A program made the position numbers and the translations under genes. Positions 1,795-13,938 of a DNA stretch of 64,000 nucleotides are shown here, one piece after another; position 1 is the first letter of the stretch, and each line of letters starts with the position of its first letter. Location: positions 3,565 to 67,564 of the forward strand of contig JBDRNT010000151.1 of assembly GCA_043810925.1 (NCBI GenBank). The letters run 5' to 3'. This DNA is from Candidatus Eiseniibacteriota bacterium (GTDB lineage: Bacteria; Arandabacterota; Arandabacteria; Arandabacterales; Arandabacteraceae). The notes under the pieces are model-generated. The model was not told the origin of the DNA, searched no databases, and was given only the letters and a program-made list of their open reading frames with translations.

Positions 1795-2778
1795 ATGCTG
1801 AAATACCTGCTGATCGTTTCTGTACTGCAACTCAGCCTGCTGCCGGGTGTGTACGGAGCAACATCATTCGACCGGACAGATGCCGATATGGGGTTCATCT
1901 ACCGCGATGAGCCTCAGAGGTTGGTATTTGAGTTTGACAATGTTTCGGATAATTCGCTCCGTATACTCGGAATCGAGCCTTCCTGTGACTGCACATCGGC
2001 CCAGGTAGTACCGGAGACACTGGGTCCGCGTGGCCACGGCAAGGTTCTCGTCTTCTTCGATCCCATGGGTTACGAGGGAAAAGGCCGGTTCAAGGAATTC
2101 GTGCGGATCGTAACGGACGACCCCTCAGAGCCCGAAGTACTGCTCACCTTCTCCGCCGAAGTGGGTATCGGCCCGGAACCCGATCCCCGTGCGCTCACCT
2201 TCGGCAAGATATGCAGGGGTGGCAGTGATACGCTTGACCTCTCTCTGCGCGCTGCGCCCGGTGAATTGCTCAAAGTGCTCGATGCATACAGCGACACGGG
2301 CTGCGTCATAGTCGAAGCGGTGGAGACCGGGGTCAGGGGCGAACATGAATTCAGAGTCATCGCTACCAACAGGGAAGGCTGCGGGCGCGTGGCAGGCCTT
2401 GTCACGATTCTGACGACCGACAGCCTGAGAAGTGAGGTCCGTGTCCCGATTACCCTGAGCCTGGTCGGGAGGATCATTGTCGAGCCGGACATAATCGCTT
2501 TCGGCCCGACGCTCCCCGGCACCTTTGTTGCGCAGACGGTTCGGATCTACTCCAAGGACGGCTTCAAGTTCAGTATCCCGAATGTCTCCTGCTCGGTGGA
2601 AAACCTTGAACCTGTCATCACGCCGGTTAGCGACAGCTCATGTGAGCTCAGGCTGATGGTCAAGGAGGGCTCTCCTCCAGGCAGGGTGGCCGGCGAGATC
2701 ACGCTGGAGACAGACTGCCCGGATGAATCGCCTCTGGATATCAGAGTTACCGGCTATATAAGGAAGGGCGGGAAGTGA
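1795..2778 (+). CDS. secreted DUF1573-domain protein with further Ig-like domains
   Basis: Signal peptide; 'FEFDNVSDNSLRILGIEPSCDCTSA...LGPRGHGKVLVFFDP' matches the DUF1573 CxC pattern. Confidence 0.75.
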   Translation: MLKYLLIVSVLQLSLLPGVYGATSFDRTDADMGFIYRDEPQRLVFEFDNVSDNSLRILGIEPSCDCTSAQVVPETLGPRGHGKVLVFFDPMGYEGKGRFKEFVRIVTDDPSEPEVLLTFSAEVGIGPEPDPRALTFGKICRGGSDTLDLSLRAAPGELLKVLDAYSDTGCVIVEAVETGVRGEHEFRVIATNREGCGRVAGLVTILTTDSLRSEVRVPITLSLVGRIIVEPDIIAFGPTLPGTFVAQTVRIYSKDGFKFSIPNVSCSVENLEPVITPVSDSSCELRLMVKEGSPPGRVAGEITLETDCPDESPLDIRVTGYIRKGGK

Positions 2779-3245
2779 AGCCGATCCTCAGACGTGCCGT
2801 CATAGAAGGTGGAATCATACTGGTGGTTGCCGCTGCGGCCGGGCTGGCGGTCAACCATGCCAGAACGGAGGGCATTCCGCTTATTGCTGATGCCGAGGCT
2901 TTCCGGGTCCGCACAAACGCCGAGTTCATGACGGCCAAGGATGCATTCCGGTTCTTTGAAGAGGGATCTGCCTTGTTTCTTGATGCCCGGGGTCCTGATC
3001 TGTTTGACGTGAAGCGCATTGAAGGGGCGATGAACATCTCCCCATCAGCAGAAGGTATCGAGAGCGTGGCTTGGCTTGCCGGAGCGGATATCCGCATCAT
3101 CTGCTATGCATGTGAGGAGAACCAGCGCGAGGCGGGAGTGCTGGCCGACATGCTGCTTGAGATCGGATGTAAGCAGGTATACGTCCTCCATGGCGGTATC
3201 GAGGGCTGGATAGACTCCGGTTTTCCTATGGAGGTAACAGGCTGA
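2775..3245 (+). CDS. membrane-anchored rhodanese-like domain protein
   Basis: N-terminal TM helix; 'LFLDARG...RIEGAMNI' and 'VYVLHGGIEGWIDSGFP' rhodanese signatures. Confidence 0.85.
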   Translation: MKPILRRAVIEGGIILVVAAAAGLAVNHARTEGIPLIADAEAFRVRTNAEFMTAKDAFRFFEEGSALFLDARGPDLFDVKRIEGAMNISPSAEGIESVAWLAGADIRIICYACEENQREAGVLADMLLEIGCKQVYVLHGGIEGWIDSGFPMEVTG

Positions 3246-3704
3246 GTGCGGTTTCTCAAACACATGGTCTCGAACAAGTACGTGATCTTTGCGATAAGGC
3301 TCATCCTTGGTTTTGTCTTCATCTATGCTTCCATAGACAAAATCGCACAGCCCGGTGCGTTTGCCGAGAACATTTACAATTACAGAATGCTACCCCACTG
3401 GGCCATCAATCTGATGGCGCTTGTGATGCCATGGCTTGAACTGATCTGCGGAGTTCTGATTATCACCGGTGTGTTCCTGAGGGGAAGCGCATTCATGATC
3501 GGTTTGATGCTGGGAGTGTTTATAATCGCGATCTCCGCCGCCCTCGTGAGGGGGCTTGACATAAGCTGCGGCTGCTTCAGCATGGAAGGGGGCCACGGCG
3601 TGGCTGTGGATCTGCTCATACGGGATGTGTTGATGTTCGCCGGGGCAGCGATCGTATTGTTTTTGGGAACCTCGGCGCTCTCGCTCAGACGAGGCGCGGA
3701 TTGA
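3246..3704 (+). CDS. MauE/DoxX family redox-associated membrane protein
   Basis: 'RLILGFVFIYASIDKI', 'PWLELICG', 'GLDISCGCFS' (CGC motif); four hydrophobic segments. Confidence 0.9.
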   Translation: MRFLKHMVSNKYVIFAIRLILGFVFIYASIDKIAQPGAFAENIYNYRMLPHWAINLMALVMPWLELICGVLIITGVFLRGSAFMIGLMLGVFIIAISAALVRGLDISCGCFSMEGGHGVAVDLLIRDVLMFAGAAIVLFLGTSALSLRRGAD

Positions 3705-3729
3705 CATAGGGTAGTGGTTCTGTTAGAAT
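3701..3729 (+). promoter_or_regulatory. near-consensus sigma70 promoter for the selenoprotein genes
   Basis: TTGACA(3701-06)-17 nt-TAGAAT(3724-29) with extended -10 TG; overlaps the MauE stop codon. Confidence 0.7.
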
Positions 3730-3764
3730 CTTGAAGGTCATTGAAACATCATGGAGGTAGGAAT

Positions 3765-5141
3765 ATGAGGTGGCATAGGGTCGGCATAAGCACTCTTGTC
3801 TTCCTGGGTCTTGTTCTCGTCGGGTTTTCGGGTGTGCTTCGTAGCCAGGGTGATGAAAGGCTGATGCTGGTATTCACTACCGGGACTGAAGGCGAGCTCA
3901 ATGCCTGCGGCTGACACGCCGGGGACAAGGGTGGCCTGGCCCGGAGGGCCGGCTTCATTGATTCACTGAGAGAAGTACACGACAATGTCCTCGTCGTAGA
4001 TGTGGGTGATTTCTTCGGCAATCGCTCTCCCAGACAGGAAAAGACAAAGACCACGGTCGTTGTAGACTACATGAGGATGGCCGGATATGACGTAGTCACG
4101 CCCGGTGAGCGCGAGATGAACTATGGCCTGGACTTCCTGATTGAAGAGACCAAGCAGGGCAAGTTTGAGACCGTGAGTGCCAACCTTCACAATAAGCAGG
4201 ACAGTACCCTGATATTCAAACCCTACGCGATCCGGAAGATAGCAGGCGTCAGTATCGGTTTCCTGGGATTCATGGATGATGATCCGCGTCGGGTGGGTGT
4301 TTTCGAGCAGCTCGAGAATGCCTACGTCTCAAGCTATATCCAGGCTGCAGAGGACTATCTGCCCGAGGTTCGTGAAAAGGCGGATCTGGTAGTCGGGCTT
4401 GCTCACGTCGGGCTTGGAAACGCACGGAAGCTGGCTGAAAGGCTTCCGGACTTCGATGTCATACTCGTCGGGCACGGCAGCGACAGAACGGCGATGGCCG
4501 AGAAGATCGGAGAGACCATCCTCGTCAAGGCCGGAAGTAAGAGCAGCTCGATAGGAATGCTCTTGCTCGCCCTCGACAGCGACAAACGGATTGTGGGTTT
4601 TGACGGCGGTTCCGAAGGGCTCACGAAGTATGGTAGAAAGCATCTGGATGTACAGCGGATTGTCAAGTCCTGTGAGGACCGTGAGAAGGCTCGTGACAGG
4701 CTGATCTCGGCACGGAAGTACAAGCTGCCCATCATCCCCCGGCGCCCCGAGGTACTGGCCGCCGAGGGCTATCTGGGGTGGGAAACGTGCAAAGCTTGCC
4801 ACAGCAAGATCCACGATCGATGGTCGCAGGATCCTCATTCCCAGGCTTTCGCGACGCTTGCGAAGGATGACAAGTGGAACGATGCGAGCTGCCTGCCCTG
4901 CCATACAACGGGTTATGAGATTGCGGCGCTCAAGGATTCGAGCGACGTAAAACCTGAAATGTGGAATGTCCAGTGTGAGGCCTGTCACGGGATGGGGACG
5001 CATCACAAGCGAGACGGTTCCATGAGGCCGGTTGCCGAGAGTGTGTGCCTGAGATGCCACACTCCCGAGTGGACCCCCGAGTGGAACTACGCGGAGATGC
5101 TGGAGAAGATCAACCACGGCAGGGACGAGGCTTCAGATTGA
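3765..5141 (+). CDS. probable selenoprotein: secreted UshA/5'-nucleotidase-like metallophosphoesterase (CxU motif) fused to a tetraheme cytochrome c (c554-like); 458 aa with Sec at codon 50
   Basis: ATG 3765 with GGAGG RBS and signal peptide. Reads GELNACG-[TGA 3912-14]-HAGDKGGLARRAGF in frame with ORF 4002..5141 (VDVGDFF, PGEREM, GLAHVG, VGHG). C-terminus has CKACH, CLPCH, CEACH, CLRCH. Confidence 0.85.
3934..3953 (+). promoter_or_regulatory. candidate bacterial SECIS hairpin for UGA 3912
   Basis: CTGGCCC-GGA-GGGCCGG stem-loop with a G-led apical loop ~28 nt after the UGA. Confidence 0.5.
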
Positions 5142-5275
5142 AAGCCCGGGCTGTCGTTTTCGTGTTACTTGCAGCATTTACGGTGCTGCTCCTGGTTGGG
5201 TTGCGGTTCGCTGAGACCGGGGACATCTACTCCACCGGCCGCTACCTCTGACTGAGCTGCATAGGGATCGGGTGA
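5138..5275 (+). CDS. probable 45-aa membrane selenopeptide with UxxC motif (CxxC-IGIG small-protein family, CD1871A-like)
   Basis: TTG start overlaps the upstream stop; one TM helix, then GRYL-[TGA 5249-51]-LSCIGIG-TGA(5273-75). The final stop overlaps the GTG of the 4Fe-4S gene. Confidence 0.8.
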
Positions 5276-5287
5276 TCCCCTCCGTGC
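5258..5287 (+). promoter_or_regulatory. candidate bacterial SECIS hairpin for UGA 5249
   Basis: GGGATC(5264-69)-GGGT-GATCCC(5274-79) perfect stem, with a lower GCAT/GTGC pairing; apical loop begins 18 nt after the UGA. Confidence 0.65.
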
Positions 5288-6207
5288 TTGCGATCTTACG
5301 CATCCTGCGTTCGGCGCTCAGCCGTGTGGGTTCTGCTTACCGGAAGCGTCGTCCGTGGCAGATCACTTCGACTATTCTCCACAATGCTTATCTGCCGGCT
5401 TCAATAGGTTTTACCGTTTACCGGGGTTTTCTTTATCTTCCCAATCTGGCGAAGATCACGCTCTACCAGGGGTTCTTAAAAGGCTTCTGCACGCCGACGC
5501 TTAACTGCTACGCGTGCCCGGGAGCGCTTATGTCCTGCCCTATCGGGAGCCTCCAGCATTTTGCAATCAGGCAACAGTTCCCGTTCTTCCTCGTGGGATT
5601 CTTTGGTCTCGTGGGTGTAGGTGTGGGAAGGATGACCTGTGGGTGGCTCTGTCCTTTCGGATTCTTTCAGGATCTGCTTAAGAAGATCTCAAGGAGAGTC
5701 GTACGACTTCCCCGGTGGATGGGTAACTTCAAGTATGTCTCGCTGGTTGGCATCGCCATATTGCTGCCGTTTTTCCTGGGGGAACTGTGGTTCTCCAAAC
5801 TCTGCCCGGCAGGGGGCCTGGAAGGTGCGATTCCCTGGGTGGCCGCGGGAGCCTCGGAGTCACCTGAGCTGGCGGGACTGGACGTGAGATCGATGATAGG
5901 CACCTTCTTCTGGATCAAGATGGCGATCCTCGGGGTTTTTCTGCTGGCCATGGTTTTCATCAAGCGGCCGTTCTGCCGGACGGCATGCCCGTTAGGGGCG
6001 ATCTTCTCACTCTTCAACAGGATCAGCCTGGTGAAGCTCAGTATCAACGAGGAGAAGTGCACCGAATGCGGCATTTGCGAGCAGATCTGCCCTGTCGATC
6101 TTAAAGCTTACAAAGAGCTGGATTCGACGGAATGTATCAAGTGCTTTGAGTGCACCAAGTGCCCGACGGGCGCGATCAAGGCGACTTTCGGCTTCGGCGG
6201 AAGCTGA
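5272..6207 (+). CDS. membrane 4Fe-4S polyferredoxin (NapH/MauN/YccM-like)
   Basis: LNCYACP, CGWLCPFG, FCRTACPLG, CTECGICEQICP, CIKCFECTKCP plus several TM helices. Confidence 0.9.
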   Translation: MIPSVLAILRILRSALSRVGSAYRKRRPWQITSTILHNAYLPASIGFTVYRGFLYLPNLAKITLYQGFLKGFCTPTLNCYACPGALMSCPIGSLQHFAIRQQFPFFLVGFFGLVGVGVGRMTCGWLCPFGFFQDLLKKISRRVVRLPRWMGNFKYVSLVGIAILLPFFLGELWFSKLCPAGGLEGAIPWVAAGASESPELAGLDVRSMIGTFFWIKMAILGVFLLAMVFIKRPFCRTACPLGAIFSLFNRISLVKLSINEEKCTECGICEQICPVDLKAYKELDSTECIKCFECTKCPTGAIKATFGFGGS

Positions 6208-6956
6208 TGGAATCCCTGACCGATCTGCTTTCGGAGACCGGGCTTAAGCGCCGGTCACCGGTGAGTGTACTTACCGGCGCCGGTGTCTCCGCCGAGAGCG
6301 GGGTCCCCACCTTCAGAGGCGAAGAAGGGCTCTGGAAAAACTTCAGAGCCGAAGAGCTGGCAACACCCGAGGCCTTCGACCGGGATCCGGCCACAGTCTG
6401 GGAATGGTACGATTACAGACGCCGGATAATTGCCGCCAAGGAGCCCAATCCCGCACACCGCGCGATCACGCGTCTTGATGAAGCCTTTCCTGACTTCCTG
6501 CTTATCACCCAGAACGTGGATGGGCTTCATGCCCGTGCGGGGACCAGACGAATCGCCGAGTTGCATGGGAACCTCTTCAGGGTACGGTGCACGCGGGACG
6601 GCGAGGTTTCCGATAACCTGGGAGTACCGCTTACCGAGATACCTCCGCGGTGCAAGTGCGGCTCGCTCCTGAGGCCGGATGTCGTCTGGTTCGGCGAGGG
6701 GCTCCCCAGGGAGGAGTTCGACAGGGCGTTCAATGCCGCCGAAGCCTGCAAGTTGATGCTCGTGGTCGGCACCTCGGCCGTTGTTCAGCCGGCGGCATCA
6801 ATACCGCTTGTGGCCAAGCAGGCTGGAGCCCTGGTAGTGGAAGTCAACCCCGATCCCACACCGCTTACCGATCTCGTCGATCTCCATCTGCGGGGCAACG
6901 CCGGCGAGGTCCTGCCGAGGGTCGTAGATATCCTGCTCGATTTTACAGATACGTAA
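6207..6956 (+). CDS. cobB: NAD-dependent protein deacylase (sirtuin, CobB)
   Basis: GAGVSAESGVPTFRG, TQNVDGLH, HGNL, RPDVVWFGE, GTSAVVQPA; ATG overlaps the upstream TGA. Confidence 0.92.
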   Translation: MESLTDLLSETGLKRRSPVSVLTGAGVSAESGVPTFRGEEGLWKNFRAEELATPEAFDRDPATVWEWYDYRRRIIAAKEPNPAHRAITRLDEAFPDFLLITQNVDGLHARAGTRRIAELHGNLFRVRCTRDGEVSDNLGVPLTEIPPRCKCGSLLRPDVVWFGEGLPREEFDRAFNAAEACKLMLVVGTSAVVQPAASIPLVAKQAGALVVEVNPDPTPLTDLVDLHLRGNAGEVLPRVVDILLDFTDT

Positions 6957-7692: not shown

Positions 7693-10600
7693 ATGAAGGT
7701 ATGGCGGGGTCTGATCCTCGTTACTCTTACAATCCTGATAGTCGGGGTAGCTGCCGGTGACGCCGGAGCCGGAGGCGGCCTGTTCTTTGTCTCGGAGGAC
7801 GAGGCGGCGCCCGAGACCGACGCGGCCCACAATAGTCTAGAAGGGGCCGATCTCACCCTGATGTATGCCGGGTTTAAGGGGCCCGGGCCGGACTCACTGA
7901 TCATAGTCCTCGACTACTCAAGCAACTGGTACAACATACACCTGATGGTTGCCCTCGAGCGCAATGGTGATGCGGATGGTGCGCCATCCGACCCGTTCGA
8001 ATTTCCCGTCACCTACGGACATGTGCTTAAGCCCGACTATGTTTTTACCTACAAGTACAGCGCCAACGACTACGCCGATCTCAGGAAATGGAACGGTGGG
8101 TGGGAGTTCTGGCATCTGGCACAGTCCAGGTGGATAACCGATCCAGCCGACGCGGGCAAGAACGCCCTGGCCATGGTGACCAAGACCAATTCACAGGTGA
8201 TCTTCAGTTTTCCGGCCGATGCAATCGGTGAATTCCTGCCCGGAGATACTTTCAGACTCCAATCCTATCTTACCTTTGAGGCCTGGGACGACGAAACACA
8301 GCAGATGGTCAAGTTCAACGCACTTGACTCCAACCCTCACGATCTCACTCATGATATGGAACCTGATGAGGGTGAATGGTGGGAAACCGCCACTGACCCC
8401 GTAACGCTGTCAGAGTATGCGACCTACATACTGCCGGAGTATGGAGTGCCTCCCAGTCTGTTCTTTGCGGCAGCCTTCCCGGACAGTGCGGCACCCGGGG
8501 ACGATGTAAGGTTCAGTGTGGACGTAAGAGATGCCGGCGGTGGGATCGGTGATGTCTCTGTCGATCTTTCGAGCGTCGGTGGAGACCCCGAGACGCCACT
8601 CAAAGATGATGGCACGGGTGGTGATGGGACGGCATCCGATGGCGTATTCTCGGTGCTCTATACATTGCCCGACAGGGTGGGTGGTGGTGTACACACGCTT
8701 GAGTTTTCTGCCCGGGATTCCACCAATGTCATGCAATCCCTGACTGAGGGGACGCTCAAGATCCTGACCGTTCCGGAACTCATCCTGACGGTTGCCGACT
8801 CGGTCGGGGACGACCACGGACCCAACCAGCCCGGCGTGTCCGGCCTTTACTACGTATATCCTACGAACCGTGTTTTCTACGCCGGTGCCTTCGACATACA
8901 TGAAGTGGAGATGATCGTCGACGGGCAGTACCTCGTCGTACGCGTCCACATAGGGAACCTCCCGGCATCAAACCAGGTCGGGTGGGGCGCCCCGTTGCCG
9001 GGAGCGACCTGTACCAACCCCAACAGCGCCGATCTCAATCTCGAGAAGATCGATATCTACATAGATTCCGAGGAAGGCGTGGGCGCGCAGATGGGACTCC
9101 CCTATCGCTATGTCGACATCGCCGAGCATGACGCCTGGGAGTATGCGGTCGCGATAGAAGGATGGTGGAAAGGGTTTGTCGAATCCAACGGGTCGGACAA
9201 CATTGGGCAGTGGACGCTTCGCACGCAGACCGTGATCATCGATTTCTGCGACGATAATGTAGAGGACTATATAGACGTTAAGATCGGACTCGCGGCGCTG
9301 GGCAGCCCCACGCCCGAGGAGATCCTAAGGTGGGACTTCATCGTCACGATGTCCGGTCACGACGGCGATAGCAGCGACGACAACTTCGGAGCCATAAGAT
9401 CGGTCAATGCCGGCACACACGAGTGGCAGTTCGGCGGCGGCCGGAACAGCTCCGGCGGCAGGGACCGCGATCCCAACCTGATCGACGTGGTCGCGATACC
9501 GGGCCAGGGAAAAGCCGCGGGACGGACCCAGGAGGAGATGCTTGATTACCTCACGGATGAGGCCTGGGAGAGATACGACCTGGGCTATAATTCCTGCCGG
9601 CTCGAGGCTTCGTTCCCCTCCGGAGGCAAGGGTGTAATACTGGGTACGGTGGCGCTCGACGGCCCGCCCGCGAATGTTGAAGTCTATGTCGTGAACTCGC
9701 TGACCGGTGAGATCGGCGGAAACGGCATAACGACCGTGCCGGGAGGAACCGGGGCGTTTCAGATCCTGAGCATCGAGGACGGTACCTATTATCTCATAGC
9801 CAGCGCTCGCGGCTATGTCGCCTTTGATTCGCTTGTGACGATTACGGGCGAAGAGTTCATCGAGGTCGACATCGAGCTCGCCGTTGCGCGCGCAACAAGA
9901 TATGCGTTCATAGACAGCCTCGGTAATGAGATTTACTCCGAGTTTGTTACGGTGAGTCTGCCCGACAGCGGGATCTTCACCTATGAAGACCTGCTCTTCG
10001 AACCCAGGGACGATGCAGGGAATTCCGCCATCTTAAGCGGTGTCGAGCCCGACAGCGTAAGGGTATCTGTCAGTCTTATCGATCCCTCGGTGCCTCCGCG
10101 TGGGGAGGTCGTTCTGGCTGCGGATGCGATGGGCACCGAGTTGATTGACGAGTTCATCACGTCGGAGATGTTCGAGGACGGTGTGGGCAGGTTCTGGGTG
10201 CGTGACGACAGCCTGGAGGTATTGAGGATCGAGGTCAGCAAGGACTTGCTGGCGGGCGCCGTGGAGCTCAGGGTAAAGGAGCTCGAACCCAGGAAGGTCA
10301 GCCTTACGCCGGATGTGACTGAGATAGTAGTCGGAGGTTCCGAGCGAATCGAGCTGGGTGTCCAGCTCCTGGACGATGTAGACAACACGATACCGGTGCG
10401 CAACGTCACGGTGCGTGTTGTCGCCGTTCAAGGTGAGCCGATTGTCGAGCCGCCGGTCGACGATACCGACGGCAACGGGTTCTTCAAGTCATCGGTCTAC
10501 GGTTACCGGGCCGGCACCGTGCGGCTTACCGCCAGATCGGAAGACAACATCTATAAGAACCTGGCGTCGGACACAATCGAGGTCTTCTTCAGGCCCGGTC

Positions 10601-13600
10601 CTGCCGCTTCGATAACCGCTTCTCTCGATCCGATTGTTGCTGACAAAGGCCAGAACGGCACGGTGACTTTCCAGGTGGTTGACGCGTTCGGGAACGCCGT
10701 AGCCGAGCCGGGGGTTTCGATAGACCTGTCGACATACCCTGAGGGACTTCTGACCTCGCTTGAGACTCCGGTAACAACCGGCGCAACGGGGCTGGCCGAG
10801 GCCGACTTCACGGCCGGTAACCGCTATGGCTTCGTATCCATAGAGGCGACATCGGACTACCCGGTCGATCCGGTTGTGCTTTCCATCGCGCCGACCTCGC
10901 TTGTGGCCGAAGACGAGGCCGCTCCCGAGAGTGACCCCGCTCATAACAGCGATCCAGGCATCGATCTCACTACGATGTATGCAACTGTTCACGCCGACAC
11001 CCTGAACATTGCTCTTGAATTCTCGACTGCATGGGATGGTGCCCATCTCATGGTGGTCTTAGAGCGAAACAGGGATCATGCCGGTGGCGAACAGGATCCC
11101 TTCGAGTTTCCGATCTTCTACAGACACACCTTCAGACCCGACTACGTTTTCACCTACAAGTATTCGGGTGGTGACTATGCCGATCTTCGCAGGTGGAACG
11201 GTGGGTGGGAGTTCTGGCATCTTGCCAACGGAACCTGGATCACCGATCCGAATGATGCCGGCAAGGATGCCAAGGGCATGGTCGAGAAACTGGCTACCCT
11301 GGTGTGGTTTAAGTTCCCGCTTGCCGCGATAGGAGGGGTTTCAGAGGGTGATACGCTCAGGCTCGAGGCATACGTCACCCAGGAGTTCGAAGGCTCCAAG
11401 TACAACGCCCTTGACTCGAGTCCCAGTGATGCGACGCACGATATGGATCCCGACGAGGGTGAGTGGTGGGAGACGGCGACGACACCCGTCACACTCTCGA
11501 AATACGGTCTTTACATAGTACCGCTCCTGACAACGCCTCCCGATCTGAGCGATCCATCGGCCTCCCCGGACAGCGTCTCGCCCGGAGAGATTGTGACCTT
11601 CTCGGTCACGGTGGAAGATGCCGGTAGTGGGGTGGGTGACGTCTTTATGGATCTCACGCCGCTCGGCGGCCGGTCCGTGACCTGGCTTTATGACGACGGA
11701 ACACACGGGGATGACGCGCAGCTTGACGGGACCTACGCGAGCCGGTTCACGATTCCAGCGGGGGTCTCACAGGGGATTCACAATGTCGCGTTCGTGGCCA
11801 GAGACAGTCTCAACCTTGCGACTTCGACCGTCTCCGTCCCCGTCACGATCACGACGTTGCCCGTACCCTTCATCTCGGTCAGGGATTCGATCGGGGACGA
11901 CCACGGACCCAACATCACGGATGCCTCAGGAAATCCGGTGGCCGGACTTTATTACTACTATCCGACAAATGGCGTCTTCGCCGAAGGCGTATTCGACATA
12001 GAACAGGTTGATCTCATAATCGACGGCACGTGGCTGGCGATCAAGGTGCATGTCGGTGAGGTGCCCTCATCGGAGGCTGTCGGCTGGAATGCGCCGTATC
12101 CAGGAGAGAAGTGTACCGACCCGAACAAGGCCGATCTCAATCTGCAGAAGATAGACATCTATATCGATTCCGAGGAAGGTGTCGGGGCCACCTCGGGCCT
12201 TCCCAATCGCAATCACGACATAGCGAGGAGTGATGCCTGGGAGTATGCCGTCGCGATAGAAGGTTGGTGGAGGGGAATCGTAAGTTCCAACGGGGAAAAC
12301 GCAACCGCCTTCTGGACCTTGAGCAAACTCGCGTCTTCGATGTATTTCTGCACGGATCACGTCGACAATTCGATCGAGATAAGTATTGCGCTCGAAGCGC
12401 TCGGTCTTCTGCAGCCCGGGGAGGACATGACCGAGGAGAGGAAAGCGGCCATAGAGCGTGAGATCAAGACCTGGGAATTCATAATCACGACGGCCAGCCA
12501 CGATGGCGATAGCAGCGATGAGAATTTCGGAGGCATAAGATGGGTCAACCGGTCAACCGGTGAATGGCAGTTCGGGGGTGGACGGGACGGCGAAGGCGGC
12601 AGGGACAGGGATCCAAACATAGTCGATGTGGTAACAGTGCGCGACTCCCTCTCGCTTGCGGGAAGACCCCAGGAGGAGATGCTCAACTACGATCTCCCGT
12701 ATGCCCAGAAGCGCTTTGAGAATCTCTTGAACGCCTGCGTGCTGGAGGCGACATTCTCCGAGGATATCTCACCACCCGACATAACCCCGTTCCACAGGGG
12801 CCGGTTCGGGCATTCGAGATGGTGGGTGCTCCAGTACAGCCCGGCTTCATTCTGGACACTGATAGTGGATGAAAGTGATATAGAGGAGGTCCAGTTCCGC
12901 TGGCGGCCTGAGGGGCAGATGTCCTGGAACGTGACCGAGATGGGACACATACTTGAGGACTACTGGATAGCCGATATCGACCCGGTGGAACTGGAAAGCG
13001 CGACGCGTCCGGTAACGCTGGTTGACGGAACCGTGGGACGGCCGTTCCAGGCCGAGATCTATGCCCGCGATGAGTTCGGTAACGAGGGCAGGAGCGAACT
13101 GCTGACATTCGCCGTTGCTGAGGACAGACTGGCCTTTGATGACAGCATAAACATAAAGCCGGGTGAGGCTTTCATAGCGTATGACGGCACATTCGTCCTT
13201 GTGCCGGACACAACGCTTTCGGAGGATTACGACGAGTTTGATATCCGGGTTACCCCGCTGCCCGAGTACGGTCCGGGATCGGTAGATCTCACGAATCTGA
13301 GATCGTCGATGGACTACATGGGTGTGGGACGGCGGATTGATGTCGTCGGCAGGAGCCTGGAGGATACGAGCATGATTTCAAAGCTCGACAACTCCATGAT
13401 CGTGGCTCTCCACTATCCATCGTACAAGCAGAGCGGACGGCTGGACGAGCAGCGAATAGGTCTTTTCCGGTATAACGATCTCACCGAGCGCTGGATCGGT
13501 ATGTACGGCTCCGTCAACGACTGGGGGAATGCCGTCAGGGCGGAGATAGACGAACCCGGCACCTTCGGTCTCTTCGCGGATTCACGGCTTTCATATGATT

Positions 13601-13938
13601 CGGGGAAGGGGCTTTCGGGTGTCACCGTCGAACCCAATCCCTTCTCGCCGAACGGTGACGGGCTCTATGACGAGACAAGAATAAACTTCTATCTCGCCAG
13701 AGAGATCGACTGGATAACGATCGAAATCTACGACATCGCCGGGCAAGCCGTGCGGACGATCCGTTGGCAGGAGGGTGTGACCCGGTTGACGCGGAACGAA
13801 GTCTACATCGATTGGGACGGAAAAGACGATAACGGTAGAGTCGTGCCCTATGGTATTTACATTCTAAGAGTCGAGGCGCGCTTTAAGGTTGCGCCGAACC
13901 TCGAACGTGAAAACAAAGCTGTTGTTGTGATCAAGTAG
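7693..13938 (+). CDS. giant (2081 aa) secreted multidomain protein: two copies of [Trp-rich DOMON-like + choice-of-anchor-X-like Ig + glucodextranase-C DOMON-like], central Ig-like domains, C-terminal FlgD/CHU_C-type sorting domain
   Basis: Signal peptide; duplicated 'EDEAAPE.D..HNS', 'L.DDGT.GD...DG' and 'DS.GDDHGPN...YYYP.N.VF..G.FDI'; C-terminal 'PNPFSPNGDGLYDET...IYDIAGQAVRTI...WDGKDDNGRVVPYGIYI'. Confidence 0.8.
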   Translation: MKVWRGLILVTLTILIVGVAAGDAGAGGGLFFVSEDEAAPETDAAHNSLEGADLTLMYAGFKGPGPDSLIIVLDYSSNWYNIHLMVALERNGDADGAPSDPFEFPVTYGHVLKPDYVFTYKYSANDYADLRKWNGGWEFWHLAQSRWITDPADAGKNALAMVTKTNSQVIFSFPADAIGEFLPGDTFRLQSYLTFEAWDDETQQMVKFNALDSNPHDLTHDMEPDEGEWWETATDPVTLSEYATYILPEYGVPPSLFFAAAFPDSAAPGDDVRFSVDVRDAGGGIGDVSVDLSSVGGDPETPLKDDGTGGDGTASDGVFSVLYTLPDRVGGGVHTLEFSARDSTNVMQSLTEGTLKILTVPELILTVADSVGDDHGPNQPGVSGLYYVYPTNRVFYAGAFDIHEVEMIVDGQYLVVRVHIGNLPASNQVGWGAPLPGATCTNPNSADLNLEKIDIYIDSEEGVGAQMGLPYRYVDIAEHDAWEYAVAIEGWWKGFVESNGSDNIGQWTLRTQTVIIDFCDDNVEDYIDVKIGLAALGSPTPEEILRWDFIVTMSGHDGDSSDDNFGAIRSVNAGTHEWQFGGGRNSSGGRDRDPNLIDVVAIPGQGKAAGRTQEEMLDYLTDEAWERYDLGYNSCRLEASFPSGGKGVILGTVALDGPPANVEVYVVNSLTGEIGGNGITTVPGGTGAFQILSIEDGTYYLIASARGYVAFDSLVTITGEEFIEVDIELAVARATRYAFIDSLGNEIYSEFVTVSLPDSGIFTYEDLLFEPRDDAGNSAILSGVEPDSVRVSVSLIDPSVPPRGEVVLAADAMGTELIDEFITSEMFEDGVGRFWVRDDSLEVLRIEVSKDLLAGAVELRVKELEPRKVSLTPDVTEIVVGGSERIELGVQLLDDVDNTIPVRNVTVRVVAVQGEPIVEPPVDDTDGNGFFKSSVYGYRAGTVRLTARSEDNIYKNLASDTIEVFFRPGPAASITASLDPIVADKGQNGTVTFQVVDAFGNAVAEPGVSIDLSTYPEGLLTSLETPVTTGATGLAEADFTAGNRYGFVSIEATSDYPVDPVVLSIAPTSLVAEDEAAPESDPAHNSDPGIDLTTMYATVHADTLNIALEFSTAWDGAHLMVVLERNRDHAGGEQDPFEFPIFYRHTFRPDYVFTYKYSGGDYADLRRWNGGWEFWHLANGTWITDPNDAGKDAKGMVEKLATLVWFKFPLAAIGGVSEGDTLRLEAYVTQEFEGSKYNALDSSPSDATHDMDPDEGEWWETATTPVTLSKYGLYIVPLLTTPPDLSDPSASPDSVSPGEIVTFSVTVEDAGSGVGDVFMDLTPLGGRSVTWLYDDGTHGDDAQLDGTYASRFTIPAGVSQGIHNVAFVARDSLNLATSTVSVPVTITTLPVPFISVRDSIGDDHGPNITDASGNPVAGLYYYYPTNGVFAEGVFDIEQVDLIIDGTWLAIKVHVGEVPSSEAVGWNAPYPGEKCTDPNKADLNLQKIDIYIDSEEGVGATSGLPNRNHDIARSDAWEYAVAIEGWWRGIVSSNGENATAFWTLSKLASSMYFCTDHVDNSIEISIALEALGLLQPGEDMTEERKAAIEREIKTWEFIITTASHDGDSSDENFGGIRWVNRSTGEWQFGGGRDGEGGRDRDPNIVDVVTVRDSLSLAGRPQEEMLNYDLPYAQKRFENLLNACVLEATFSEDISPPDITPFHRGRFGHSRWWVLQYSPASFWTLIVDESDIEEVQFRWRPEGQMSWNVTEMGHILEDYWIADIDPVELESATRPVTLVDGTVGRPFQAEIYARDEFGNEGRSELLTFAVAEDRLAFDDSINIKPGEAFIAYDGTFVLVPDTTLSEDYDEFDIRVTPLPEYGPGSVDLTNLRSSMDYMGVGRRIDVVGRSLEDTSMISKLDNSMIVALHYPSYKQSGRLDEQRIGLFRYNDLTERWIGMYGSVNDWGNAVRAEIDEPGTFGLFADSRLSYDSGKGLSGVTVEPNPFSPNGDGLYDETRINFYLAREIDWITIEIYDIAGQAVRTIRWQEGVTRLTRNEVYIDWDGKDDNGRVVPYGIYILRVEARFKVAPNLERENKAVVVIK

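What the first reader, a model, noticed from the sequence alone, without database searches (positions are those of the whole stretch)
1795..6207. Envelope redox cluster carrying two hidden selenoproteins (CxU phosphoesterase-cytochrome + UxxC peptide + polyferredoxin + MauE + rhodanese + DUF1573)
Seen in the sequence: six co-oriented genes, most overlapping or abutting, and nearly all with thiol/selenol motifs. These are DUF1573 (CDC), a membrane rhodanese, MauE/DoxX (CGC), an exported CGU protein with 4 c-type hemes, a UxxC membrane peptide, and a NapH/MauN-like 4Fe-4S membrane protein. Two in-frame UGAs fall exactly at redox-motif positions, and both have downstream hairpins. Inference: a membrane-to-periplasm electron/sulfur-selenium relay (quinol -> polyferredoxin -> UxxC peptide/MauE -> CxU tetraheme enzyme), possibly for S/Se or metal(loid) chemistry. 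The substrate cannot be read from the sequence, and I know of no characterised system with this full gene set.
Basis: partly seen in the sequence, partly recalled or inferred. Interest (0 to 1): 0.85.

Follow-up and report, generated by a model that had tools for sequence, protein, structure and literature searches.

The report
Two selenoproteins in envelope redox cluster
A conserved gene cluster in an uncultured bacterial lineage encodes two real selenocysteine proteins: one belongs to a known family, and the other is a 45-residue membrane peptide not found in the selenoprotein lists checked, which is always paired with an iron-sulfur membrane protein.

Summary
Six co-oriented genes lie at 1795-6207: DUF1573, a membrane-anchored rhodanese, MauE, a UshA-like/tetraheme cytochrome, a small peptide and a NapH-like polyferredoxin. 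Both in-frame UGAs are best read as selenocysteine.

Site 1 (C-G-U) aligns with C-G-C in distant homologues. It falls in the known 'UshA-like (seleno)protein' family, but here a four-heme domain replaces the C-terminal half.

Site 2 (U-LSC-IGIG-stop) is the more novel part. It is a Sec form of the uncharacterised CD1871A CXXC peptide family. That family is absent from a 2026 table of 119 selenoprotein families.

Support for site 2:
- Cys homologues align at the UGA.
- Codons after the UGA vary only synonymously.
- A hairpin with compensatory changes occurs in Sec forms but rarely in Cys forms.
- The genome has selA, selB, selD and tRNA-Sec.

Peptide and NapH-like gene form a two-gene module across many phyla. 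They are sometimes fused, and often sit beside TlpA-like or System II cytochrome c maturation genes. This suggests they carry reducing power outward to periplasmic thiols.

The "six-gene relay" is only partly supported. A conserved promoter splits the cluster, the rhodanese cysteine is not conserved, and the flanking housekeeping genes are equally syntenic.

The parts
1795..2778 (+). Exported DUF1573 protein (327 aa). It has a signal-peptide-like N-terminus and a C64-D-C66 motif.
   Evidence: PF07610 62.8 bits. Weak match to the OS_HP2 (seleno)protein domain NF041425, 46.8 bits against a cut-off of 100. C-D-C is invariant in 14 of 14 orthologues. A natural fusion of DUF1573 with a UshA-cytochrome exists (P0058).
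2775..3245 (+). Single-pass membrane-anchored rhodanese-homology protein (156 aa). It is probably non-catalytic in most of the lineage.
   Evidence: PF00581 44.4 bits. TM helix at residues 8-26 with 3 basic residues before it. C113 is present in 2 of 14 and C110 in 8 of 14 orthologues; 3 orthologues have no Cys.
3246..3704 (+). MauE/DoxX-family membrane protein (152 aa) with a C108-G-C110 motif in a loop inferred to face outward.
   Evidence: PF07291 96.4 bits. C-G-C is invariant in 14 of 14. The loop position comes from a hydropathy script plus inference.
3701..3729 (+). Sigma-70-type promoter-like site TTGACA-17-TAGAAT (with TG before the -10), directly upstream of the cytochrome gene.
   Evidence: 11 of 12 consensus matches. 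The same TTGACA-N17-TAnnAT element, with a variable spacer, is present in 14 of 14 orthologous intergenic regions. The total count of promoter-like sites in the region is not above shuffles (3 against 2.4).
3765..5141 (+). Exported selenoprotein: a UshA-like (calcineurin-fold) N-domain with C-G-U, fused to a cytochrome c554-like tetraheme domain. ATG 3765 follows GGAGG at 3752-3756. The listed ORF starts at TTG 3741, and residue numbers in this report count from 3741.
   Evidence: NF041198 UshA_like_PCGU 262.7 bits (cut-off 275), model positions 7-276 of 519 only. PF13435 49.1 bits. Four CxxCH motifs are invariant in 75 aligned sequences. All 15 homologues in the same family and order carry 1 TGA.
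3912..3914 (+). In-frame UGA read as selenocysteine (residue 58, motif A-C-G-U-H).
   Evidence: P-C-G-U-H is seen in the 9 oriented relatives printed. (S/P/T)-C-G-C is seen in 10 of the 11 distant Cys homologues printed; P0071 has C-Y-E-C instead. Position 58 is Cys or Sec in 50 of 52 sequences that cover it.
3933..3954 (+). Candidate bacterial SECIS hairpin for site 1: GGCC-U-GGCCC / GGA / GGGCC-GGCU, starting 19 nt after the UGA.
   Evidence: Folded. Conserved in 15 sequences, but with only 1 compensatory pair, and it overlaps the conserved G-G-L-A-R-R-A-G codons, so the evidence is confounded. Sec homologues of the sister family keep it, and a distant one has another hairpin with a GGUCG loop.
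5138..5275 (+). Gene for a 45-residue single-pass membrane selenopeptide: M-KARAVV...GRYL-U-LSC-IGIG-stop. Its TTG start overlaps the cytochrome stop. Its stop at 5273-5275 overlaps GTG 5272.
   Evidence: TM helix at residues 6-24 with basic residues on the N-side. It is a Sec form of the CD1871A CXXC family NF040920. The window copy scores only 10.2 bits, but Sec relatives score 32.8 and 27.5 and Cys relatives 23-52 bits, against a cut-off of 32.
5249..5251 (+). In-frame UGA read as selenocysteine (residue 38, motif U-x-x-C, seven codons before the stop).
   Evidence: 14 of 14 loci of the order have TGA, then [L/M][S/T]CIG[I/V]G, then a stop, with synonymous variation at the Leu, Ser, Cys, Ile and Gly codons. 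70 Cys forms and 5 Sec forms align at this codon among 75 peptides from named genomes. L130 (Sec) and L147 (Cys) are near-twins.
5263..5280 (+). SECIS hairpin for site 2: AGGGAUC / GGGU / GAUCCCU, starting 11 nt after the UGA. It spans the last sense codons, the stop codon and the first bases beyond it.
   Evidence: 7 pairs, 2 of them with compensatory double changes. At least 6 of 7 pairs in this register in 4 of 5 Sec forms, against 2 of 70 Cys forms. Other Sec clades carry a shifted hairpin.
5272..6207 (+). NapH/MauN-like four-TM polyferredoxin. The start is GTG 5272 or, more likely, GTG 5284, which aligns with the ATG of the same-genus relative.
   Evidence: PF12801 Fer4_5 52.2 bits. TIGR02163 73.7 bits against a cut-off of 213. 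All Cys motifs are conserved in 13 of 13 orthologues (C73 in 12 of 13) and invariant in a 36-sequence cross-phylum alignment. The motifs are N-C-Y-x-C-P...C-P, two CX3CP, C-P-A-G and two ferredoxin clusters.

Best explanation
The region holds two adjacent transcription units that are conserved across one order of an uncultured, unnamed phylum. Both act at the cell envelope.

Unit 1 encodes DUF1573 (C-D-C), a membrane-anchored rhodanese-homology protein and MauE (C-G-C).

Unit 2 encodes two genuine selenoproteins and an iron-sulfur membrane protein.

(a) An exported protein whose N-domain has the UshA/5'-nucleotidase fold. It has lost most dimetal ligands and carries a near-invariant Cys-Gly-Sec. 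This domain is fused to a four-heme c554-like domain. I read it as a heme-linked thiol/selenol redox protein, not a phosphoesterase.

(b) A 45-residue single-pass peptide whose outward-facing C-terminus ends Sec-Leu-Ser-Cys-Ile-Gly-Ile-Gly. It is the selenocysteine form of the widespread, uncharacterised CD1871A CXXC peptide family.

(c) The peptide's obligate partner, a NapH-like four-TM protein with two cytoplasmic [4Fe-4S] motifs and conserved Cys-Pro motifs on both membrane faces.

Proposed mechanism (inferred, not shown): the NapH-like protein takes electrons on the cytoplasmic side or from quinol. It reduces the peptide's selenenylsulfide (a disulfide in Cys forms) at the outer face. The peptide then passes reducing equivalents to periplasmic thiol proteins. 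In other phyla these would be TlpA-like oxidoreductases and the System II cytochrome c maturation machinery. Here they would be the CGU tetraheme protein and perhaps the DUF1573 and MauE CxC sites.

Shown: gene anatomy, Sec/Cys pairing, hairpins specific to Sec forms, Sec machinery, the cross-phylum pairing, and fusion of peptide with the NapH-like protein.

Inferred: topology, direction of electron flow, targets.
For: Sec machinery in the genome: selA (587 bits), selB (375.8 bits), and two selD genes, one with an in-frame TGA. tRNA-Sec lies next to that selD on contig C89.

Site 1:
- 15 of 15 homologues in the same family and order carry one TGA.
- The motif is P-C-G-U-H in relatives and C-G-C in distant homologues.
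- Position 58 is Cys or Sec in 50 of 52 sequences.
- The N-domain matches NF041198 '(seleno)protein'.

Site 2:
- 14 of 14 loci keep TGA, seven sense codons and a stop, with third-position variation.
- The pattern hits once in 14 of 18 genomes of the phylum and never in the reversed control.
- 70 Cys and 5 Sec peptides align at this codon.
- The hairpin has 2 compensatory pairs. It is present in 4 of 5 Sec forms against 2 of 70 Cys forms.
- 41 further Sec-form peptides in metagenomes fall into at least 6 clades.

The pair:
- A NapH-like gene is adjacent in 74 of 75 peptides from named genomes and 39 of 41 metagenome Sec loci.
- Three fused proteins exist among 16 longer hits, and their layouts place the CxxC on the side opposite the ferredoxin domain.
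- The complex prediction gave weak support: score 0.33, best of 3 controls 0.00. The mark was reached by 58 of 80 solved complexes and 2 of 110 mismatched pairs. At 0.60 or under it was reached by only 7 of those 80 and by both mismatches. Runs agree in at least 74% of contacts and the partner's pLDDT is at least 56.

Function of the pair:
- A TlpA/AhpC-TSA-type gene with a WCxxC motif and a signal peptide is nearby in 15 of 75 and 12 of 41 loci.
- In one Sec clade the gene order is GltD-like flavoprotein, cytochrome c3, ResB, CcsA, peptide, NapH-like.

Heme-thiol coupling: homologues of the same c554-like domain are fused to peroxiredoxin/TlpA-type domains (P0114, P0118).
Against: - No experiment, and no RNA or protein evidence, bears on any of this.
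- The window's peptide scores only 10.2 bits against NF040920 (E 0.55). Its membership rests on the invariant C-terminal octapeptide and on gene context.
- The hairpins are not energetically exceptional. The site-1 hairpin overlaps conserved codons.
- TlpA, ResB or CcsA are neighbours in only about a quarter of loci. Most other neighbours look like unrelated housekeeping genes.
- The genome also has a CcdA/DsbD_TM-type gene elsewhere (53.8 bits), so a second reductant route is not strictly needed.
- The complex prediction is only weak support.
- Within this order the flanking LptD, HU and Sir2 genes are syntenic too (in 8, 8 and 7 of the 14 loci; some contigs are short), so synteny does not prove that units 1 and 2 work together.
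- Sec-containing UshA-cytochrome homologues in the sister family have unrelated neighbours.
- Topology is inferred from hydropathy, from charge and from recalled NapH topology. It was not computed with a dedicated predictor.
Confidence: 0.6

Rival explanations
1. Soft-metal handling rather than thiol-disulfide relay. The CxC, CxU and UxxC motifs would bind Cu(I) or another thiophilic metal. The NapH-like polyferredoxin would act as a metal reductase, as reported for the related CcoG. The peptide would be a membrane metallochaperone.
For: - The DUF1573, MauE and UshA-like proteins all carry C-x-C or C-x-U rather than thioredoxin-type CxxC.
- MauE gives a weak hit to the HvfX Cu-binding RiPP maturation family (24 bits against a cut-off of 80).
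- Several listed selenoprotein families are metal binders, such as CopZ-like, MerT-like and SO_0444.
- CcoG as a cupric reductase is recalled from memory, not from a call.
Against: - No metal transporter, P-type ATPase or known chaperone was seen among the recurring neighbours.
- The recurring functional neighbours are TlpA-like oxidoreductases and ResB/CcsA.
- The NCBIfam CcoG model scores only 16.5 bits against a cut-off of 316.7.
Confidence: 0.17
2. One reading: a dedicated six-gene respiratory or detoxifying enzyme system for sulfur, selenium or metalloid compounds. The CGU tetraheme protein would be the terminal catalyst, and rhodanese would be the S/Se carrier.
For: - The UshA-like domain is distantly related to the thiosulfohydrolase SoxB (TIGR04486 87.2 bits; PDB 2wdc E 1.8e-4).
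- A rhodanese gene sits in the cluster.
- A natural DUF1573/UshA-cytochrome fusion links two of the genes.
- All six genes are conserved in the order.
Against: - The rhodanese active-site Cys is present in only 2 of 14 orthologues, and three orthologues have no Cys.
- The SoxB score is far below its cut-off of 550, and the dimetal ligands are not conserved.
- The peptide/NapH-like pair occurs in many phyla without the other genes.
- A conserved promoter splits the cluster.
- No molybdopterin or other known S/Se/As reductase gene was seen in the cluster.
Confidence: 0.15
3. One or both UGAs are ordinary stop codons. The genes would be split or truncated, and the downstream conservation would belong to something else, such as the leader of the next gene.
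For: - Gene callers in public data end or start the proteins at the UGAs. The database holds a 37-aa peptide and N-truncated cytochromes of about 380 aa.
- Hairpin energies are unremarkable.
Against: - In-frame amino-acid conservation continues past both UGAs, with synonymous codon changes.
- Cys aligns at both positions in homologues.
- The hairpin tracks the UGA forms.
- The full Sec machinery is present.
- Without read-through, the N-terminal signal sequence and C-G motif of the cytochrome would be a separate 57-codon ORF conserved for no evident reason.
Confidence: 0.04

Closest known systems
UshA-like (seleno)protein family (NCBIfam NF041198, 'PCGU'; COG0737 UshA-like CxU selenoproteins of Zhang & Gladyshev 2008)
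   Same: Calcineurin-type N-domain with C-G-U/C near the N-terminus, followed by G-G-L-A-R-R-A. The HMM match is 262.7 bits over model positions 7-276. The family is listed with a CxU motif in the 2008 GOS paper (passages seen) and in the 2026 review table (section 7 read).
   Different: The score is just under the cut-off of 275. The C-terminal half of the 519-position model is not matched; a c554-like tetraheme domain takes its place. This UshA-N plus tetraheme architecture is itself common in metagenomes, with Cys or Sec.
CD1871A family CXXC motif-containing protein (NCBIfam NF040920)
   Same: Peptides of about 45 aa with basic residues, one TM helix and about 20 residues ending C-L-S-C-I-G-I-G-COOH. 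Cys relatives score 23-52 bits and one Sec relative scores 32.8 bits, against a cut-off of 32.
   Different: Here the first Cys is selenocysteine. The window copy itself scores 10.2 bits. The family name carries no selenoprotein label, and no paper mentioning it was found.
NapH / MauN membrane ferredoxins (TIGR02163)
   Same: Four-TM layout, CX3CP motifs after TM2 and TM4, and a C-terminal double [4Fe-4S] ferredoxin domain.
   Different: 73.7 bits against a cut-off of 213. There is an extra invariant N-C-Y-x-C-P...C-P loop and a C-P-A-G motif. No NapG, NapC or NapA genes are in the cluster. It is paired with a CXXC/UXXC peptide instead.
CcdA/DsbD with ResA/CcmG/TlpA thiol-reduction pathway of cytochrome c maturation
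   Same: By context only. In one Sec clade the peptide/NapH-like pair sits directly after ResB and CcsA. That CcdA and ResA usually act with these genes is recalled. Elsewhere the pair sits beside exported WCxxC TlpA-like genes.
   Different: No sequence relation to DsbD_TM. The pair is an Fe-S protein plus a separate one-helix peptide rather than a six-TM dithiol protein. The function is untested.
mau cluster accessory genes MauE, MauD, MauM and MauN (methylamine dehydrogenase maturation)
   Same: A MauE-family and a MauN/NapH-family membrane protein occur together with a membrane-anchored thiol-redox component. The composition of the mau cluster is recalled, not tested.
   Different: No methylamine dehydrogenase genes were seen in the cluster. 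The thiol component is a 45-aa UxxC peptide rather than the thioredoxin-fold MauD. MauE lies in a separate transcription unit.
Selenoproteins with Sec a few residues from the C-terminus (the 'KCU-star', 'UXX-star' and SaoC Cys-Cys-COOH families in the 2026 review table)
   Same: Sec lies so close to the stop codon that the SECIS hairpin must extend beyond the coding region.
   Different: Different sequence families. Here Sec is eight residues from the end, in a U-x-x-C motif of a membrane peptide.

Membership tests
Bacterial selenoprotein (both sites) | In-frame UGA aligned with Cys in homologues | tested here: met
   Site 1: C-G-U against C-G-C. Site 2: 5 Sec and 70 Cys forms align at the same codon.
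Bacterial selenoprotein (both sites) | SECIS-type hairpin shortly downstream of the UGA | tested here: met
   Site 2: 7-bp stem with a GGGU loop, 2 compensatory pairs, and specific to Sec forms. Site 1: the hairpin is present and conserved, but its covariation is inconclusive because it overlaps conserved codons. Energies are not above shuffles.
Bacterial selenoprotein (both sites) | selA, selB, selD and tRNA-Sec present in the genome | tested here: met
   All are over their curated cut-offs. tRNA-SeC (anticodon tca) is on contig C89.
Bacterial selenoprotein (both sites) | Selenium physically incorporated in the protein | not testable with these tools
   Needs 75Se labelling or mass spectrometry.
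UshA-like (seleno)protein NF041198 | Whole-protein HMM score at or above the curated cut-off (275 bits) | tested here: not met
   262.7 bits. The best stretch covers model positions 7-276 of 519.
UshA-like (seleno)protein NF041198 | C-x-U/C motif near the N-terminus | tested here: met
   A-C-G-U-H in the window and P-C-G-U-H in relatives. The CxU motif is as listed.
Calcineurin-like metallophosphoesterase / 5'-nucleotidase | Dimetal ligands: the D-x-H and G-N-H-E motifs and the conserved His residues | tested here: not met
   Aligned to 5'-nucleotidase 2z1a, N-D-T-H becomes T-G-T-E and G-N-H-E becomes G-E-R-E. These positions vary across 75 homologues. Pfam Metallophos scores 16.9 bits against a cut-off of 21.5. 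Which residues are metal ligands is recalled.
Thiosulfohydrolase SoxB TIGR04486 | HMM score at or above the cut-off (550 bits) | tested here: not met
   87.2 bits.
Multiheme cytochrome c (c554-like, PF13435) | Pfam score over the cut-off, and CxxCH heme-binding motifs | tested here: met
   49.1 bits against 20.8. Four CxxCH motifs and two further His are invariant in 75 sequences.
CD1871A family CXXC peptide NF040920 | HMM score at or above the cut-off (32 bits) | tested here: not met
   The window peptide scores 10.2 bits, E 0.55. Sec relatives score 32.8 (L077) and 27.5 (L130). Of 6 Cys relatives scanned, 3 score 42.7, 52.3 and 52.5, and 3 score 23.2, 31.0 and 31.4, below the cut-off.
CD1871A family CXXC peptide NF040920 | Single TM helix followed by a C-terminal C-x-x-C at the very end of a protein of about 45 aa | tested here: met
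   C/U-L-S-C-I-G-I-G-stop is invariant in 45 aligned Cys peptides and in 14 loci of the window's order. Note that the Cys set was retrieved with a DNA pattern that itself specifies this octapeptide, so its invariance there is partly by construction. The independent profile search places every listed match at or one to four residues from the protein's C-terminus. TM helix. That this layout defines the family is my reading of the model's name and 38-position length.
NapH/MauN family TIGR02163 | HMM score at or above the cut-off (213 bits) | tested here: not met
   73.7 bits. The NapH equivalog NF007013 scores 61.8 against 234.
NapH/MauN family TIGR02163 | CX3CP motifs after TM helices plus two 4Fe-4S ferredoxin motifs | tested here: met
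   C123-x3-C127-P, C235-x3-C239-P, C263/266/269/273 and C288/291/294/297.
Rhodanese sulfurtransferase | Conserved catalytic cysteine in the active-site loop | tested here: not met
   The domain is present (PF00581 44.4 bits). But C113 is kept in 2 of 14 orthologues, C110 in 8 of 14, and three orthologues have no Cys.
MauE PF07291 / DUF1573 PF07610 | Pfam score over the gathering threshold | tested here: met
   MauE 96.4 against 27. DUF1573 62.8 against 26.1.

The most novel reading that the evidence does not exclude
The CD1871A-type peptide and its NapH-like Fe-S partner form a previously unrecognised, widespread conduit that carries reducing power from the cytoplasm to periplasmic or extracellular thiols. 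It would be an iron-sulfur-based alternative to CcdA/DsbD, serving TlpA-like oxidoreductases and cytochrome c maturation. At least six lineages would have upgraded its active site to a selenenylsulfide, which would make this 45-residue peptide a new and unusually small membrane selenoprotein family.
Probability: 0.35. Interest if true: 0.8.

Novelty: new variant of a known kind. Interest (0 to 1): 0.62.

Why it matters
If correct, this adds a selenoprotein family to the catalogue. The family is tiny (about 45 aa), membrane-bound and systematically truncated by gene callers.

It also gives a first functional handle on the CD1871A peptides. These have 1,682 representative clusters at E <= 0.001 and no literature found.

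The constant pairing and occasional fusion with a NapH-like Fe-S protein, together with the links to TlpA-like, ResB and CcsA genes, makes a concrete question testable. Is there an iron-sulfur route for exporting reducing equivalents to envelope thiols and apocytochromes, in addition to CcdA/DsbD?

The UshA-like CGU/tetraheme fusion shows a phosphoesterase fold re-used as a heme-linked thiol/selenol site.

For annotation, both genes in this lineage are mis-called in public protein sets.

Tried and rejected
- TsoA (LULAxC motif selenoprotein, NF045695) as the identity of the peptide. The best genome hit is 12.5 bits, E 0.34, elsewhere in the genome, and the model has 144 positions. Rejected.
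- Single-sequence search with the peptide. It found only its own truncated 37-aa form, because relatives share too few exact words. The DNA pattern scans solved this.
- Pfam on the peptides. No credible family.
- Order-specific HMMs and Pfam on the neighbours of distant UshA-cytochrome homologues. No thiol-redox partners, nothing informative.
- Whether the NapH-like partner is itself a selenoprotein where it gave two HMM stretches. In the eight loci read, six show one open frame with no in-frame TGA inside the NapH-like domain, and four of these carry an insertion in an outer loop. L100 has a TGA near the start of its frame, and L111 has one in the frame upstream of the matched domain. I did not resolve these two.
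- Hairpin energies against shuffles. Not significant, so I rely on comparative evidence.
- RNA evidence. The look-up of sequencing runs listed one DNA run with a small share of words, and no RNA holder was listed. I laid no reads. This says nothing about expression.
- Complex prediction gave only weak support. It is cited with its controls and given little weight.
- Structure prediction and fold search were not run. The tools return no coordinates, so they could not show the distance from the CGU site to the hemes.
- Taxonomic name. Record titles of relatives say only 'bacterium', and 18 genomes of the phylum are held. I did not pursue it.
- Literature. Haft & Tolstoy 2025 (PMC12013261) is not held. 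The supplements of the 2008 GOS paper, of Haft & Tolstoy 2025, or of the deep-Sep 2025 paper could list a peptide of this kind, and I could not see them.
  - The claim that the Sec form is not in print rests, and on Table 1 of PMC13188914.
  - From PMC13188914 I read section 7, parts 1 and 2, plus passages.
  - From PMC2398784 I read passages only.
  - PMC9312934 I saw only in a search listing.

Full report
ANATOMY

ORF listing under table 11 and with TGA read as U, raw sequence and family scans confirm six co-oriented genes.

- DUF1573: 1795-2778.
- Rhodanese-homology protein with an N-terminal TM helix: 2775-3245.
- MauE/DoxX: 3246-3704.
- UshA-like domain fused to four CxxCH motifs: ORF from TTG 3741. 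The likely start is ATG 3765, which follows GGAGG. It ends at 5141.
- 45-codon peptide: 5138-5275.
- NapH-like Fer4_5/Fer4 protein: 5272 or 5284 to 6207.

The junctions are tight. The peptide's TTG start overlaps the cytochrome stop. Its own stop overlaps a GTG.

The two in-frame TGAs give A-C-G-U-H (3912-3914) and L-U-L-S-C-I-G-I-G-stop (5249-5251).

SEC MACHINERY

The window's genome is 3.85 Mb in 185 contigs and 91.7% complete. It has selA, selB and two selD genes, one with its own in-frame TGA. A tRNA-SeC lies next to that selD on contig C89.

SITE 1

All 15 homologues in the same family and order carry exactly one TGA. In the nine that my script oriented, the motif reads P-C-G-U-H-x-x-D-K-G-G-L-A-R-R-A-G.

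Public protein sets hold only N-truncated versions of about 380 aa for the close relatives.

Distant homologues of about 30% identity have the same architecture, and 10 of the 11 I printed read (S/P/T)-C-G-C at the aligned place; P0071 has C-Y-E-C. In a 75-sequence alignment, 52 sequences cover this region. The first Cys is present in 50, the Gly in 48, and Cys or Sec at position 58 in 50.

The N-domain matches NCBIfam NF041198 'UshA-like (seleno)protein' at 262.7 bits, just under the cut-off of 275. Only model positions 7-276 of 519 are matched. The family has been in print since the 2008 GOS analysis as 'COG0737, UshA-like, CxU' (passages). It is also listed in a 2026 review table. This selenoprotein is therefore known in kind.

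What differs is the C-terminal half. A c554-like tetraheme domain is present (PF13435), and its four CxxCH motifs are invariant.

Aligned to a solved 5'-nucleotidase, the first metal motif N-D-T-H reads T-G-T-E and G-N-H-E reads G-E-R-E. These positions vary across the family. The fold is kept but the dimetal phosphoesterase site is not. The invariant features are the C-G-C/U motif, G-G-L-A-R-R-A and the hemes.

A hairpin begins 19 nt after the UGA and is conserved. It overlaps the G-G-L-A-R-R-A-G codons and shows only one compensatory pair, so it is weak evidence on its own.

SITE 2

In the window and 13 related loci, the UGA is followed by [L/M][S/T]-C-I-G-[I/V]-G and a stop. The Leu, Ser, Cys, Ile and Gly codons vary synonymously, with Ser as AGC, TCC, TCT, TCA or TCG and Cys as TGC or TGT.

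A degenerate pattern for these nine codons hits once in 14 of the 18 held genomes of the phylum. It never hits in the reversed control. The four misses are a 57%-complete genome, a genome whose contig ends before the site, and the two genomes of the sister family.

The same pattern, allowing Cys or UGA at the first codon, was scanned over one genome per species. Five of these are chance matches. The other 75 are small proteins with basic residues, one TM helix and about 20 residues ending in the octapeptide. Seventy have Cys and five have UGA.

The Cys forms come from records titled Desulfobulbaceae, Syntrophales, Thermodesulfobacteriota, Spirochaetales, Eubacteriales, Gaiellales and others. 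The UGA forms come from the window's phylum and from records titled Poribacteria, Bacteroidota and 'Deltaproteobacteria'. The last of these has a near-identical Cys twin.

The Cys forms match NCBIfam NF040920, 'CD1871A family CXXC motif-containing protein', at 23-52 bits against a cut-off of 32. Read with Cys, one Sec form reaches 32.8 bits and another 27.5. The window's own copy reaches only 10.2 bits.

The hairpin 11 nt after the UGA has a 7-bp stem and a GGGU loop, and it shows two pairs with compensatory double changes. In its register, at least 6 of 7 pairs form in 4 of 5 Sec forms but in only 2 of 70 Cys forms.

A metagenome scan for the UGA form gave 50 stretches. Nine are chance matches and 41 are real peptides in at least six sequence clades. 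Twelve of the 41 are from the window's lineage, with the UshA-cytochrome gene upstream. The other clades carry either the same hairpin or one shifted by a few bases.

A profile of the Cys peptides finds 1,682 representative clusters at E <= 0.001 among 1.84 billion proteins, always at or within four residues of the C-terminus of very small proteins.

The 2026 review table of 119 selenoprotein families lists nothing of this kind. I found no paper containing 'CD1871A' or the octapeptide. Supplements, and Haft & Tolstoy 2025, could not be read.

Sec a few residues from a stop, with the SECIS running past it, has precedents in the 'star' families of that table.

THE PEPTIDE'S PARTNER

A NapH-like gene is adjacent in 74 of the 75 peptides from named genomes. 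It lies directly downstream in 71 and upstream in 3. It is also adjacent in 39 of the 41 metagenome Sec loci; the other two sit on short contigs.

A 36-sequence cross-phylum alignment has these invariant features:
- an N-C-Y-x-C-P...C-P loop
- two CX3CP motifs
- a C-P-A-G motif
- two ferredoxin-type cluster motifs

Among 16 longer proteins that match the peptide profile, three are fusions with the NapH-like protein. In two, the peptide follows the ferredoxin domain through an extra TM helix. In one, the peptide comes first and a further TM helix leads back into the NapH-like part. Both layouts put the CxxC on the side opposite the ferredoxin domain, that is, outside.

Hydropathy and charge agree with an N-in, C-out peptide.

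A complex prediction of a Cys-form pair gave weak support. The score was 0.33 against a best control of 0.00, and the tool's caveats are given in the evidence field.

WHAT THE PAIR MIGHT DO

Outside the window's phylum, the commonest functional neighbour is an exported thioredoxin-fold TlpA/AhpC-TSA protein with a WCxxC motif. It occurs in 15 of 75 and 12 of 41 loci.

In one Sec clade and its Cys twin, the gene order is GltD-like Fe-S flavoprotein, cytochrome c3, ResB, CcsA, peptide, NapH-like. The pair thus directly follows ResB and CcsA of System II cytochrome c biogenesis. From memory, CcdA and ResA normally supply the thiol-reducing branch of that system.

In the window, the pair is translationally coupled to a tetraheme cytochrome gene.

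I therefore propose that the Fe-S protein and the peptide export reducing equivalents to envelope thiols. This is inference from context. About three quarters of loci show no such neighbour within the DNA held, and the window's genome also has a CcdA-like gene elsewhere.

IS IT ONE SIX-GENE SYSTEM?

Within the order, the genes from DUF1573 to the NapH-like protein are kept in every locus long enough to show them (13 of 14 for the first three genes). But LptD and HU upstream and Sir2 downstream are syntenic as well, in 8, 8 and 7 of the 14 loci.

A TTGACA-N17-TAnnAT element with a variable spacer lies between MauE and the cytochrome gene in 14 of 14 loci. This points to two transcription units.

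The DUF1573 C-D-C and MauE C-G-C motifs are invariant in 14 of 14 orthologues. The rhodanese cysteine is not: C113 is kept in 2 of 14 and C110 in 8 of 14, and three orthologues have no Cys.

A natural DUF1573/UshA-cytochrome fusion (P0058) ties those two genes together. Homologues of the tetraheme domain fused to peroxiredoxin/TlpA-type domains (P0114, P0118) fit a heme-to-thiol theme.

Sec-containing UshA-cytochrome genes in the sister family have unrelated neighbours.

The cluster is best described as three modules brought together in this lineage:
1. DUF1573, rhodanese-homology protein and MauE.
2. The CGU tetraheme protein.
3. The UxxC peptide and the NapH-like protein.

VERDICT

Both selenoprotein calls are well supported by comparative evidence.

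The first belongs to a known family, in an architecture that its NCBIfam model does not cover. The second is, as far as my searches reach, an unlisted selenoprotein form of an uncharacterised family, with a constant Fe-S partner.

The relay idea is plausible in outline. Its wiring, direction and substrate remain open, and the sulfur/selenium-transfer role of rhodanese is weakened.

Noticed in passing
window 7693-13938 (+): A 2081-aa ORF that contains two long internal repeats. Each repeat begins with a similar E-D-E-A-A-P-E-x-D-x-A-H-N-S stretch, visible in the translation. It was not scanned against any family library.
   Followed up: no
G000:C89:56288-57427 (L003): A selD homologue with an in-frame TGA (361.7 bits) lies immediately upstream of the tRNA-SeC gene. 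A second selD without a TGA lies on contig C38 inside a 738-aa open frame.
   Followed up: partly
window 6150-6956 (+): A Sir2-family deacetylase gene (PF02146, 174 bits) abuts or overlaps the end of the NapH-like gene. It keeps this position in 7 of 14 related loci. There is no obvious link to the redox genes.
   Followed up: no
L222:8516-14141 and L240:1-5125 (metagenome loci): A same-strand gene row in a Sec-using clade: GltD-like Fe-S flavoprotein (Fer4_20 + Pyr_redox_2), class III cytochrome c, ResB, CcsA, Sec-peptide, NapH-like protein. No CcdA or ResA gene was seen in the stretch examined.
   Followed up: partly
P0114, P0118: Proteins of 637 and 687 aa that combine peroxiredoxin/TlpA-type thioredoxin-fold domains with the same c554-like multiheme domain. 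They suggest a recurrent heme-plus-thiol architecture.
   Followed up: no
L200, L201, L214, L215, L232, L237 (metagenome loci): Six stretches share an identical non-peptide context (…S-Y-I-I-C-S-V-S-H-K, TGA, L-S-C-I-G-I-G) with no NapH-like gene nearby. I treated them as chance or unrelated matches to the pattern. Their nature is unknown.
   Followed up: no
L083, L112, L119, L194, L204, L217: In several lineages the NapH-like partner carries an insertion of about 30-40 residues, rich in acidic residues, in the loop before the C-P-A/Q-G motif. This splits the HMM match in two.
   Followed up: partly
window 2775-3245 and L037: Only the window's genus keeps a C-Y-A-C-E-E-N-Q-R rhodanese loop with both cysteines. 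Other genera of the family have Ser, Ala, Thr or Glu at these positions.
   Followed up: yes
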